Part shown: positions 49,201 through 52,200 of the stretch, piece by piece
Layout of the letters: each line of letters opens with the position of its first letter
Position numbering within the stretch: position 1 is the stretch's first letter
Made by a program: the position numbers
Origin: Escherichia coli
Lineage (GTDB): Bacteria > Pseudomonadota > Gammaproteobacteria > Enterobacterales > Enterobacteriaceae
NCBI RefSeq assembly: GCF_030013205.1
Contig: NZ_CP122648.1
DNA: 64,000 bases
Direction: 5' to 3' (one strand)

Positions 49201-52200
49201 CACCACCCTGTCTACAGAGCCAGATGTGAAGGATGATGAGTAGAATTATCGCTATCATCGAAGGCATTGCGTCCTGATGTACTCCTGCAGGTAGTTAACC
49301 TGCGCGGTTATCCTGTCGATTCCACTTCGGAGACGGTAATAATTGAGTTCAGCATCTGCTGTAAGTCTTGGGCTTTCTCCATCGCCCATGCCGCTGGCTC
49401 TGGTCGTTGACTTTGCACAGGTGGCGGCGACTTGCAGGCGCTTACGACCAGCAGAAACATCAGCACGGAGACTTTCGATATCGAAGCAGAGGACATCAAC
49501 GACTGCTATAACCACTGGATGATATGGGCGCAGATAGCGCATGCAGACGTAACAAATATTCGAATTGAAGAACTGAAAGAACACCAAACCGCCTGATGGC
49601 GGTTTTTTCTTGCGTGTAATTGCGGAGACTTTGCGATGTACTTGACACTTCAGGAGTGGAACGCACGCCAGCGGCGCCCAAGAAGCCTTGAAACAGTTCG
49701 TCGATGGGTACGCGAGTGCAGGATATTCCCTCCTCCGGTTAAGGATGGAAGAGAGTATCTGTTCCACGAATCAGCGGTAAAGGTTGACTTAAATCGACCA
49801 ATAACAGGTAGCCTTTTGAAGAGGATCGGAAATGGGAAGAAGGCGAAGTCATGAGCGCCGGGATTTACCCCCTAACCTTTATATAAGAAACAATGGATAT
49901 TACTGCTACAGGGACCCAAGGACGGGTAAAGAGTTTGGATTAGGCCGAGACAGGCGAATCGCAATCACTGAAGCTATACAGGCCAACATTGAGTTATTTT
50001 CAGGACACAAACACAAGCCTCTGACAGCGAGAATCAACAGTGATAATTCTGTTACGTTACATTCATGGCTTGATCGCTACGAAAAAATCCTCGCCAGCAG
50101 AGGAATCAAGCAGAAGACACTCATAAATTACATGAGCAAAATTAAAGCAATAAGGAGGGGGCTACCTGATGTTCCACTTGAAGACATCACCACAAAAGAA
50201 ATTGCGGCAATGCTCAATGGATACATAGACGAGGGCAAGGCGGCGTCAGCCAAGTTAATCAGATCAACACTGAGCGATGCATTCCGAGAGGCAATAGCTG
50301 AAGGCCATATAACAATAAACCCGGTCGCTGCCACTCGCGCTGCAAAATCAGAGGTAAGGAGATCAAGACTTACGGCTGACGAATACCTGAAAATTTATCA
50401 AGCAGCAGAATCATCACCATGTTGGCTCAGACTTGCAATGGAACTGGCTGTTGTTACCGGGCAGCGAGTTGGTGATTTATGCGAAATGAAGTGGTCTGAT
50501 ATCGTAGATGGATATCTTTATGTCGAGCAAAGCAAAACAGGTGTAAAAATTGCCATCCCTACAACATTGCATGTTGATGCTCTCGGGATATCAATGAAGG
50601 AAACACTTGATAAATGCAAAGAGATTCTTGGCGGAGAAACCATAATTGCATCTACTCGTCGTGAACCGCTTTCATCCGGCACAGTATCAAGGTATTTTAT
50701 GCGCGCACGAAAAGCATCAGGTCTTTCCTTCGAAGGGGATCCGCCCACCTTTCACGAGTTGCGCAGTTTGTCTGCAAGACTCTATGAGAAGCAGATAAGC
50801 GATAAGTTTGCTCAACATCTTCTCGGGCATAAGTCGGACACCATGGCATCACAGTATCGTGACGACAGAGGCAGGGAGTGGGACAAAATTGAAATCAAAT
50901 AATGATTTTATTTTGACTGATAGTGACCTGTTCGTTGCAACAAATTGATAAGCAATGCTTTTTTATAATGCCAACTTAGTATAAAAAAGCAGGCTTCAAC
51001 GGATTCATTTTTCTATTTCATAGCCCGGAGCAACCTGTGAACACATTTTCAGTTTCCCGTCTGGCGCTGGCATTGGCTTTTGGCGTGACGCTGACCGCCT
51101 GTAGCTCAACACCGCCCGATCAACCTCCTTCTGATCAAACCGCGCCTGGTACCTCTTCTCGCCCGATTCTGTCGGCAAAAGAAGCGCAGAATTTCGATGC
51201 TCAACACTATTTTGCATCCCTGACACCAGGTGCGGCAGCGTGGAATCCTTCCCCGATTACCCTGCCTGCGCAACCTGACTTTGTTGTCGGCCCGGCGGGT
51301 ACTCAAGGTGTAACGCATACCACGATTCAGGCGGCGGTAGATGCGGCAATTATCAAGCGCACCAACAAGCGCCAGTATATTGCCGTGATGCCTGGTGAGT
51401 ATCAGGGAACGGTGTATGTCCCTGCCGCTCCGGGTGGAATTACTCTGTACGGTACAGGTGAAAAACCGATTGATGTGAAGATTGGGCTTTCCCTTGATGG
51501 TGGCATGAGCCCTGCCGACTGGCGTCACGACGTCAACCCGCGCGGCAAATATATGCCAGGTAAACCAGCGTGGTATATGTACGATAGCTGCCAGAGCAAA
51601 CGCAGCGACAGTATCGGCGTTCTCTGCTCTGCGGTCTTCTGGTCACAAAACAATGGCCTGCAACTGCAAAACCTGACCATCGAAAACACGCTGGGCGATA
51701 GCGTAGATGCGGGTAACCATCCGGCGGTGGCACTGCGTACTGATGGCGACAAAGTGCAGATCAATAACGTCAACATTCTCGGTCGTCAGAACACCTTCTT
51801 TGTTACCAACAGTGGTGTGCAAAACCGTCTGGAAACCAACCGTCAGCCGCGTACTCTGGTGACCAACAGTTACATTGAAGGGGATGTGGATATCGTTTCT
51901 GGTCGCGGCGCAGTGGTGTTCGATAATACCGAATTCCGCGTGGTGAACTCACGTACTCAGCAAGAAGCGTATGTGTTTGCACCGGCAACACTGTCTAACA
52001 TCTATTACGGTTTCCTCGCCGTAAACAGCCGTTTCAATGCTTCCGGTGATGGCGTGGCGCAACTGGGCCGCTCGCTGGATGTTGATGCTAATACCAACGG
52101 TCAGGTGGTGATCCGTGATAGCGCCATCAACGAAGGTTTTAACACGGCGAAACCGTGGGCCGATGCGGTGATTTCCAATCGTCCATTCGCAGGTAACACC

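What the first reader, a model, noticed from the sequence alone, without database searches (positions are those of the whole stretch)
49255..49640. Deletion scar: 5'-truncated Rz/Rz1 fused close to xis (entire early/lysis region missing)
Only the C-terminal half of an Rz-like spanin (matching lambda Rz from about DVAAGRRRL onward) is present, with an embedded Rz1-like lipoprotein frame. Its upstream half is replaced by unrelated sequence that runs into the xis upstream region within about 150 bp. In an intact lambdoid prophage tens of kilobases (recombination genes, immunity, replication, Q, holin, endolysin) would lie between xis and Rz.
Basis: partly seen in the sequence, partly recalled or inferred. 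Interest (0 to 1): 0.5.

Follow-up and report, generated by a model that had tools for sequence, protein, structure and literature searches.

The report
Deletion scar in a decayed prophage
This is the healed break left when a P22-like virus resident in a pig E. coli chromosome lost about 16 kb carrying its control, replication and cell-bursting genes; it is an ordinary case of a dormant virus decaying.

Summary
Observation confirmed and interpretation supported. The window is the E. coli ETEC4079 chromosome. Positions 30630-50990 are a 20.4-kb remnant of a P22-like (Lederbergvirus) prophage. It has a lambda-type int/xis module and sits in the lambda attachment site between ybhB and ybhC.

At 49479/49480 the 3' half of Rz (codons 72-145 of 145) is joined to the last 38 codons of a 55-codon ORF that precedes xis in lambda (lambdap35, "orf55"). 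Rz1 is embedded in that Rz half but has lost its own start codon and first five codons. The only overlap at the joint is 2 bp (TA).

A public prophage with no mismatches to the 7.7 kb left of the joint (L035) still carries full Rz, endolysin, holin, Q, nin, replication and immunity genes. The missing interval is about 16.4 kb (15,965 bp in phage 720R6).

A sister remnant (L014), with no mismatches to the window on either side, keeps 775 bp more and has 19 nt of filler. Its orf55 breakpoint is the same nucleotide as here, so this joint probably formed in two steps.

A second scar of 2,081 bp at 41778-41780 removed the gp4 and gp10 homologues and the start of the tail-needle gene.

The remnant cannot lyse, replicate or make virions. 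This is ordinary prophage decay and of low interest.

The parts
30630..50990 (.). Whole prophage remnant (20,361 bp), P22-like, between ybhB and ybhC
   Evidence: Lambda att cores lie at both ends. PGAP annotation of ETEC4079. Synteny with 720R6, Huey, ETEC1701 and L035.
30630..30644 (-). attR core, GCcTTTTTATACTAA, one mismatch to the lambda core
   Evidence: ETEC1701, 720R6, Huey and lambda all have the exact core.
41778..41780 (.). Second deletion joint (J2), 3-bp TAG overlap. 2,081 bp are missing: most of a 62-codon ORF, the gp4 and gp10 homologues, and the first ~14 codons of the tail-needle gene
   Evidence: Three-way alignment. L035 is 100% identical on both sides and intact. Translations.
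48150..48876 (-). DUF2560 gene (80 aa) and Gp49-family gene (126 aa). These are normal post-lysis, pre-terS genes, not a holin or endolysin
49115..49267 (-). 50-aa ORF (Sf6 gp65 homologue) overlapping the 3' end of Rz, intact
   Evidence: phrog_11822 full length. Synteny.
49255..49480 (-). Rz' i-spanin fragment: codons 72-145 plus the stop codon. The N-terminal TM domain and the first half of the periplasmic domain are deleted
   Evidence: PGAP calls it a pseudogene missing its N-terminus.
49308..49496 (-). Rz1' o-spanin frame. Native codons 6-61 occupy 49308-49478. The native ATG and codons 2-5 are deleted. The joint supplies a fortuitous in-frame ATG at 49496-49494 (MSSASI-SKVSVLMFLLVVSAC...)
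   Evidence: PGAP calls it a pseudogene.
49479..49480 (.). Deletion joint J1. The TA dinucleotide is shared by both parental sequences. It sits at the centre of a perfect 12-bp palindrome, TTCGATATCGAA (49474-49485)
   Evidence: Three-way alignments. Palindrome. Chance estimates.
49479..49596 (+). orf55' : codons 18-55 plus stop of the lambdap35-type 55-codon ORF that lies upstream of xis
   Evidence: phrog_676 positions 18-55 of 55. Lambda annotation and alignment, breakpoint at lambda 29235. Eight intact prophages are identical from 49479 rightwards.
49586..49613 (+). Terminator-like hairpin plus T-run between orf55 and xis
   Evidence: A terminator is annotated at this place in phages 434 and HK97.
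49636..49854 (+). xis, intact; 69 of 72 residues identical to lambda Xis
49832..50902 (+). int, intact; 351 of 356 residues identical to lambda Int; catalytic R212, K235, H308, R311, H333 and Y342 kept
50976..50990 (-). attL core, exact lambda core GCTTTTTTATACTAA

Best explanation
The feature is an inert scar, not a working element. A P22-like prophage with a lambda-type Int/Xis module sat in the lambda attachment site. It lost the roughly 16.4-kb interval running from the middle of Rz leftwards in the phage map, through R, S, Q, nin, P/O, cII, cro, cI and N and the recombination and ea genes, to codon 17 of the small ORF upstream of xis. The ends were joined by illegitimate recombination with only a 2-bp TA overlap.

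It most likely happened in two steps (inferred).
1. A deletion of about 15.6 kb joined the last 86 nt of the holin gene to orf55 codon 18, with 19 nt of filler. This state survives in the sister remnant L014.
2. In the ETEC4079 lineage a further 775-bp deletion removed S', R, the 5' half of Rz, the start of Rz1 and the filler. It ran between two TA dinucleotides at the tips of an 8-bp inverted repeat (TTCGATAG ... CTATCGAA) and left a 12-bp palindrome.

Consequences (inferred from what is missing):
- There is no repressor, replication system, late-gene activator Q with its promoter, holin or endolysin.
- With the second scar at 41778-41780, which removes gp4, gp10 and the needle start, the remnant cannot lyse the cell, replicate or build virions.
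- int and xis are intact, but pL and cII are gone, so self-excision should be negligible.

The confidence of 0.9 applies to 'deletion scar in a P22-like prophage remnant'. The two-step sub-claim stands at about 0.6-0.7.
For: Breakpoints mapped to the nucleotide.

An intact, collinear comparator at the same site has the genes in question. L035 has 0 mismatches over 7.7 kb left of J1 and carries full Rz, R, S, Q, nin, O/P and cI. L015 and L016 have 0 mismatches over orf55-xis-int-ybhC and carry an intact orf55 with early-left genes. Stitching these gives 16,417 bp lost; in 720R6 coordinates it is 15,965 bp.

The joint is present, 100% identical, in an independent assembly (L010).

L014 has no mismatches to the window on either side. 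It keeps 775 bp more plus 19 nt of filler, and its orf55 breakpoint is the same nucleotide.

A palindrome of at least 12 bp at a random joint is expected in only 0.15% of simulated deletions.

Other evidence: PHROG partial-profile matches; no TM segment; no sigma-70-like promoter found in 48800-51100; PGAP independently flags Rz, Rz1 and orf55 as truncated pseudogenes.
Against: - The two-step order is inferred from one sister sequence. Step 2 would have had to end within 0-2 nt of the earlier joint, which is itself a coincidence unless the inverted repeat guided it.
- An 8-bp stem with a ~770-nt loop is a weak structure.
- 2 bp of microhomology is expected by chance in 16% of random joints, so it says nothing about the mechanism.
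- The origin of the 19-nt filler was not found.
- No expression or induction data exist, so 'inert' is an inference.
- The exact early-left gene set of the true ancestor is not known, because L015-type and L016-type both fit.
Confidence: 0.9

Rival explanations
1. J1 arose in a single step from the intact prophage, independently of the L014 joint. The identical orf55 breakpoint would then mark a recurrent, sequence-specific break or fragile site, with a fixed right end and variable left ends, repaired by end joining.
For: Two different joints share the same right-hand nucleotide. L014 has filler DNA, which is typical of end joining. The 7-bp inverted repeat TTCGATA/TATCGAA also exists in the intact parent, so the palindrome forms either way. 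Other independent central deletions occur in related prophages (L040 and L029).
Against: No nuclease site, att-like site or IS end was recognised at the breakpoint. Only two joints are known. L014 and the window share no mismatches across their common sequence, which fits recent common descent, so inheriting the breakpoint is the simpler reading.
Confidence: 0.2
2. The joint is a crossover between two different phages, for example tandem lysogens at the lambda attachment site or an incoming phage recombining with a resident one, rather than a deletion within one prophage.
For: Compared with the ETEC1701 prophage, only the arms of the remnant are near-identical: attR to the needle gene (99.8-99.9%), and int onward with no mismatches. 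The stretch 41781 to about 49828 looks foreign.
Against: A single intact prophage, L035, contains head genes, lysis genes and the needle side with 0 mismatches to the window. L015 and L016 contain orf55-xis-int-ybhC with 0 mismatches. The mosaic therefore predates the deletions. The order and orientation are collinear with one prophage.
Confidence: 0.04
3. The joint is an assembly artefact of the ETEC4079 genome.
For: Only 1 of 5,426 complete RefSeq E. coli genomes has the joint. No match was found in metagenome or viral contigs.
Against: An independent assembly (GCA_030346235.1, L010) contains J1 and J2, 100% identical over 18.7 kb. The J2-spanning protein is recorded on 3 contigs. There is no repeat at the joint that could mislead an assembler (2-bp overlap).
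Confidence: 0.01
4. Rz is full length with a divergent N-terminus, and the upstream ORFs form a working lysis cassette.
For: A 170-aa ORF is open across the joint.
Against: Residues 1-96 are antisense to orf55 and xis, match no family and have no TM segment. The 126-aa and 80-aa ORFs belong to non-lysis families and lie downstream of Rz, not upstream. Holin and endolysin are absent from the whole remnant.
Confidence: 0.005

Closest known systems
Lambda Rz/Rz1 two-component spanin (embedded gene pair)
   Same: The C-terminal periplasmic half of Rz is homologous: 41% identity to lambda Rz 80-152 and about 97% to Sf6 Rz. Rz1 is embedded in the +1 frame and keeps its lipobox cysteine.
   Different: The TM anchor and residues 1-71 of Rz are missing. 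The native Rz1 start is missing. There is no holin or endolysin and no late promoter. It is a pseudogene pair, not a functional spanin.
P22-like (Lederbergvirus) prophages with lambda-type integrase at the lambda attachment site: vB_EcoP-720R6 (ON470605.1), phage Huey (PQ850609.1), the ETEC1701 prophage and L035
   Same: Same insertion site and orientation. Same int, xis and att core. Same late-gene order, 97.5-100% identical.
   Different: The window lacks about 16.4 kb (Rz 5' half through orf55 5' end) and 2,081 bp (gp4, gp10, needle start).
Cryptic lambdoid prophages of E. coli K-12 (Qin, DLP12, Rac) and defective prophages in general
   Same: Grounded prophages with large internal deletions and truncated genes at novel joints. 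The Qin copy in this same genome shows a terL'|stfQ' joint. General picture from my own knowledge: Casjens 2003; Bobay, Touchon and Rocha 2014. See also PMC3945230 on exchange between phages and defective prophages.
   Different: This remnant is very young. It has 0 mismatches to an intact relative over 7.7 kb and is confined to a few isolates. Intermediate stages of its decay are still sampled (L014/L034).
Deletions between short direct repeats brought together by inverted repeats (Glickman-Ripley type; nearly precise transposon excision) - from my own knowledge
   Same: The endpoints are TA/TA direct repeats at the tips of an 8-bp inverted repeat, and the product is a palindrome.
   Different: The stem is only 8 bp and the loop is about 770 nt, or 16 kb if the deletion was single-step. 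A causal role is not shown.

Membership tests
Rz/Rz1 spanin (functional, lambda-type embedded pair) | i-spanin with an N-terminal transmembrane domain | tested here: not met
   Only profile positions 79-154 of 154 match. Maximum hydropathy of the upstream 96 aa is 1.08, against 2.63 for the Rz TM helix.
Rz/Rz1 spanin (functional, lambda-type embedded pair) | Periplasmic C-terminal domain homologous to Rz | tested here: met
   phrog_13 E=7e-33. BLASTP to lambda Rz E=5e-16.
Rz/Rz1 spanin (functional, lambda-type embedded pair) | o-spanin lipoprotein gene embedded in the +1 frame, with its own start and a lipobox | tested here: inconclusive
   Frame and lipobox VSAC are kept. The native ATG and codons 2-5 are deleted, and a fortuitous ATG at 49496 restores an ORF. 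Expression was not tested.
Rz/Rz1 spanin (functional, lambda-type embedded pair) | Part of a lysis cassette with holin and endolysin under the late promoter | tested here: not met
   No holin, endolysin or Q anywhere in the remnant. They are present in the comparators.
P22-like (Lederbergvirus) prophage | Late-gene order terS-terL-portal-scaffold-coat-gp4-gp10-needle-ejection proteins-tailspike | tested here: met
   gp4, gp10 and the needle start are missing because of J2.
P22-like (Lederbergvirus) prophage | Complete early region (immunity, replication, Q), i.e. an inducible prophage | tested here: not met
   Absent.
Lambda-type Int/Xis integration module at the lambda attachment site | Tyrosine integrase with the catalytic residues, Xis, a 15-bp core at both ends, and a location between bio/ybhB and ybhC/gal | tested here: met
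   Int 351/356 and Xis 69/72 identical to lambda, catalytic residues kept. Cores (attR has 1 mismatch). Flanking genes.
Defective prophage formed by internal deletion | A collinear intact relative with near-identical flanks that contains the missing interval | tested here: met
   L035, 0 mismatches on the left. L015 and L016, 0 mismatches on the right. 720R6 at the same site.
Defective prophage formed by internal deletion | Loss of inducibility, lysis and virion production | not testable with these tools
   Inferred from gene content only.

The most novel reading that the evidence does not exclude
The nucleotide-identical orf55 breakpoint in two different joints (ETEC4079-type and L014-type) could mark a sequence-directed break or hotspot. 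The filler DNA in one joint and the palindromic product in the other fit that reading. The hotspot would lie just upstream of xis in lambda-type integration modules. A host or phage nuclease, or hairpin-prone DNA, would repeatedly cut there and so trigger loss of the prophage's lethal central region. That would make prophage grounding at this site a directed process rather than random decay.
Probability: 0.06. Interest if true: 0.45.

Novelty: new member of a known kind. Interest (0 to 1): 0.12.

Why it matters
It matters little beyond annotation.

- The locus is a dead prophage. It should not be counted as an inducible phage or as a source of functional spanins.
- The 316-aa 'tail needle knob protein' that PGAP calls intact is really a deletion chimera.
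- The intact ancestor, an intermediate and the final remnant are all sampled with no mismatches between them. The locus is therefore a small, clean natural example of stepwise prophage erosion, with joints resolved to the nucleotide.

Tried and rejected
- Full-length divergent Rz, and the 126-aa/80-aa ORFs as holin/endolysin. Rejected by profile coverage, hydropathy and synteny.
- Tandem lysogens or an inter-phage crossover. I considered this because the centre of the remnant differs from the ETEC1701 prophage. Rejected once L035, L015 and L016 showed the same mosaic intact with 0 mismatches.
- Assembly artefact. Rejected because L010 carries both joints.
- Exact-junction searches in metagenome and viral contig collections found nothing. 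Exact look-up of five junction-spanning ORFs found nothing.
- The origin of the 19-nt filler in L014 was not found in any fetched locus, down to 12-mers. The L014-type joint is not in the 5,426 complete genomes.
- Microhomology as a clue to mechanism. 2 bp (J1) and 3 bp (J2) are within chance, P=0.16 and 0.054.
- An apparent third lesion, the PGAP pseudogene at 37074-38189. A 754-aa gp16-type ORF is open there, so I dropped it.
- A literature search for strain ETEC4079 found no paper.
- I could not test whether the missing 16 kb sits elsewhere in the ETEC4079 genome. The collinear orientation of the joint makes a simple deletion the economical reading.
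Full report
WHERE THE WINDOW COMES FROM

The window is identical to the chromosome of the porcine E. coli strain ETEC4079 (NZ_CP122643.1) over the 35 kb I compared. Genes bioA and ybhB lie on one side of the region of interest, and ybhC, ybhJ, mod and gal on the other.

The lambda 15-bp att core occurs twice. An exact copy is at 50976-50990. A copy with one mismatch is at 30630-30644. None is expected by chance. The 20,361 bp between the cores are phage DNA.

The phage genes, mostly on the minus strand, are: tailspike, ant/arc/mnt, ejection proteins, needle, coat, scaffold, portal, terL, terS, DUF2560 (80 aa), Gp49-family (126 aa), a 50-aa ORF and a partial Rz. 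On the plus strand follow a partial small ORF, xis and int. This is the late-gene order of P22-like podoviruses (Lederbergvirus), attached to a lambda-type integration module. Int is 351/356 identical to lambda Int and keeps all six catalytic residues. Xis is 69/72 identical to lambda Xis.

CHECKING THE OBSERVATION

A 1-kb query across the finding splits cleanly in two.
- Positions up to 49480-49483 match Sf6, HK620-like, CUS-3, epsilon34 and similar phages at about 98% identity, over the 50-aa ORF and Rz/Rz1.
- Positions from 49479 match the orf55-xis-int region of lambda, 434, HK106, PhiR11_1 and others at 96-98%.

Ungapped three-way alignments put the end of Rz-side homology at 49480 (...CTTTCGATA). 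The start of orf55-side homology is at 49479 (TATCGAAGCAG...). Two bases, TA, are therefore shared.

On the minus strand this keeps Rz codons 72-145 of 145. PHROG phrog_13 is matched only over positions 79-154 of 154.

The 170-aa mechanical ORF is Rz only in its last 74 residues. The rest is antisense to orf55 and xis, matches nothing, and lacks the hydrophobic segment of Sf6 and lambda Rz.

Rz1 is present in the +1 frame with its lipobox, but its ATG and first five codons lie beyond the breakpoint. By accident the orf55-side sequence provides an in-frame ATG at 49496.

On the plus strand, 49479-49596 are codons 18-55 of the 55-codon ORF lambdap35 ('ORF55' in the phage 434 record). The breakpoint corresponds to lambda coordinate 29235. 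A terminator-like hairpin follows at 49586-49605, and xis starts at 49636.

PGAP had already marked Rz, Rz1 and this ORF as truncated pseudogenes.

WHAT IS MISSING

The record for phage vB_EcoP-720R6 (ON470605.1) is in fact a prophage in the same site and orientation (uvrB-bio-ybhB-prophage-int). Between the two breakpoints it carries 15,965 bp. These hold the Rz 5' half, endolysin, holin, two tRNAs, Q, the nin genes, replication genes, cII, cro, cI, N, the recombination and ea genes, and the start of orf55.

The near-isogenic strain ETEC1701 has a full 42.5-kb prophage at the same site.

The best comparators came from exact-protein look-ups.
- L035 (GCA_021649045.1) has no mismatches to window 41778-49483 or to 41336-41780. 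It contains full Rz, R, S, Q, nin, O/DnaB, cII, cro and cI.
- L015 and L016 have no mismatches over orf55-xis-int-att-ybhC and carry an intact orf55 preceded by early-left genes.

Stitching L035 and L016 through a 360-bp gap bridged with ETEC1701 gives a loss of 16,417 bp. Order and orientation across the joint are collinear with the intact prophage, so a simple deletion is the economical reading.

The 126-aa and 80-aa ORFs are the Gp49-family and DUF2560 genes. In every intact relative they lie between Rz and terS. They are not lysis genes.

IS THE JOINT REAL, AND HOW WIDESPREAD IS IT?

Only 1 of 5,426 complete RefSeq E. coli genomes carries it. The exact 25-mer across the joint is absent from the metagenome and viral contig collections.

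An independent assembly (GCA_030346235.1, L010) is 100% identical to window 30867-49555 and includes both this joint and the second one. The protein that spans the second joint is recorded on three contigs. An assembly artefact is therefore very unlikely.

HOW THE JOINT PROBABLY FORMED

A sister remnant, L014/L034 (GCA_053634275.1), has no mismatches to the window on either side of the joint, but its joint is different. It retains the Rz 5' half, the whole endolysin gene and the last 86 nt of the holin gene. Then come 19 nt of unplaced filler (ATCCGTGCAGGTCGCCAGC). Then comes orf55, starting at exactly the same nucleotide as in the window.

Eight intact prophages read ...AACAGGGT|TATCGAAG... 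at this point, so both remnants depart from the parent at the same base. The simplest history has two steps.
1. A deletion of about 15.6 kb, with filler, which is the L014 state.
2. In the ETEC4079 lineage, a 775-bp deletion from Rz to the old joint.

In an L014-like parent, the ends of the second deletion are two TA dinucleotides. They sit at the inner tips of an 8-bp inverted repeat: TTCGATAG in Rz, and CTATCGAA spanning the old joint. The product is the perfect 12-bp palindrome TTCGATATCGAA at 49474-49485.

In 200,000 simulated random deletions in the 720R6 prophage, a palindrome of at least 12 bp at the joint occurred in 0.15%. By contrast, at least 2 bp of microhomology occurred in 16%. 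The microhomology is therefore uninformative. The palindrome is a post-hoc hint that the inverted repeat helped to bring the ends together.

I rate the two-step history at about 0.6-0.7. The main alternative is two independent events sharing a fragile or targeted site, at about 0.2. The origin of the filler was not found, and the L014-type joint is not in the complete-genome set.

A MOSAIC THAT LOOKED LIKE A SECOND PHAGE

Against the ETEC1701 prophage, the remnant is 99.8-99.9% identical from the chromosome through the tail genes up to 41780. It has no mismatches from about 49829 (int) into ybhC. The stretch between carries Sf6-type head genes that ETEC1701 lacks. Its xis has 5 SNPs, and it lacks a 444-bp ORF114-type insert between orf55 and xis.

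This raised the possibility of tandem lysogens or a crossover between two phages. L035, L015 and L016 show that the same mosaic exists intact, so the exchange predates the deletions and both joints are plain deletions.

OTHER DAMAGE AND CONSEQUENCES

At 41778-41780 a second scar with a 3-bp TAG overlap removes 2,081 bp. The loss covers most of a 62-codon ORF, the gp4 and gp10 homologues, and the first ~14 codons of the needle gene.

Together the two scars leave the remnant without repressor, replication functions, Q with the late promoter, holin, endolysin or essential head-completion proteins. No sigma-70-like promoter was found around the joint.

From established lambda biology, xis needs pL and int needs cII-activated pI, and both are deleted. 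The remnant should therefore be locked in unless a related phage supplies these functions. These consequences are inferred from gene content and were not measured.

COMPARISON WITH WHAT IS KNOWN, AND VERDICT

This is a defective prophage produced by internal deletion. It is the same kind of object as Qin, DLP12 or Rac in K-12. The Qin copy of this very genome shows its own terL'|stfQ' joint.

Related P22-like prophages in other assemblies show different, independent deletions of the central region. In L040 an early-left exonuclease gene abuts the holin gene. In L029 the O gene abuts the coat gene. Such grounding is therefore recurrent.

The Rz/Rz1 fragment fails the defining tests of a functional spanin: no TM anchor, no native Rz1 start, no holin or endolysin partners. 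Nothing here is new in kind. It is a new, very young member of a known kind, and it is useful mainly for correct annotation and as a clean example of stepwise prophage erosion. Interest is about 0.12.

Noticed in passing
window 41778-41780 (context 40867-41880): Second deletion scar, 2,081 bp with a 3-bp TAG overlap. It removes the gp4 and gp10 homologues, most of a 62-codon ORF and the first ~14 codons of the tail-needle gene. PGAP nevertheless annotates a 316-aa 'tail needle knob protein' (WP_282843021.1) as intact, using a non-canonical start codon. The first canonical start is the GTG at 41688.
   Followed up: yes
window 49474-49485: The Rz|orf55 joint lies at the centre of a perfect 12-bp palindrome, TTCGATATCGAA, which contains a new EcoRV site. 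A palindrome this long arose at 0.15% of simulated random joints.
   Followed up: partly
window 49308-49496 (minus strand): The joint fortuitously supplies an in-frame ATG that restores a 62-codon Rz1-like lipoprotein ORF with an altered signal-peptide N-terminus (MSSASI...). Whether it is expressed is unknown.
   Followed up: no
L014 5825-5843 and L034 (GCA_053634275.1): Sister remnant with no mismatches to the window around the joint. It keeps Rz, the endolysin and 86 nt of the holin gene, has 19 nt of filler of unknown origin, and has the same orf55 breakpoint. It carries deletions of its own: 476 bp inside the portal gene, and gp14' joined to scaffold'.
   Followed up: partly
L010 2262/2263 and L021 5921/5922 (GCA_030346235.1), equivalent to window 49555/49557: In another assembly that carries both scars, the remnant is broken again inside orf55'. 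One side is joined to the Qin stfQ'-tfaQ segment, starting at the same nucleotide as Qin's own terL'|stfQ' joint (L011 position 6001). This creates a 647-codon fusion ORF. The other side is joined to unrelated genes of unknown function. It could be a rearrangement, an insertion or a contig chimera; I did not resolve which.
   Followed up: partly
window 30630-30644: The attR core has a T-to-C change (GCcTTTTTATACTAA) outside the 7-bp overlap region. ETEC1701, 720R6, Huey and lambda have the exact core.
   Followed up: partly
window 36057-38321: PGAP marks a 'lytic transglycosylase domain' pseudogene at 37074-38189 and leaves 35820-37074 unannotated. However, a 754-codon gp16-type ORF is open across the region, and the equivalent gene in L034 is called as a gene there.
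   Followed up: partly
window 41781-49828 compared with ETEC1701 (L006/L007): The two near-isogenic pig ETEC strains carry prophages at the lambda attachment site with near-identical arms but different head-gene modules: Sf6-type terminase, portal and coat here, a different set in ETEC1701. The ETEC1701 prophage also has a 444-bp ORF114-type insert between orf55 and xis, an IS3-family insertion in its early-left region, and an internal stop in its orf55.
   Followed up: partly
L040 (GCA_031958805.1) and L029 (GCA_021467465.1): These are independent internal deletions in related P22-like prophages. In L040, at the lambda attachment site, an early-left exonuclease gene abuts the holin gene. In L029 the replication gene O abuts the coat gene. 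Loss of the central region therefore recurs in this phage group.
   Followed up: no
window 38156-39108: A ~950-bp patch spanning the gp20/gp16 boundary finds no nucleotide match in the ETEC1701 prophage, which is otherwise 99.8-99.9% identical. It is probably a small mosaic replacement.
   Followed up: no
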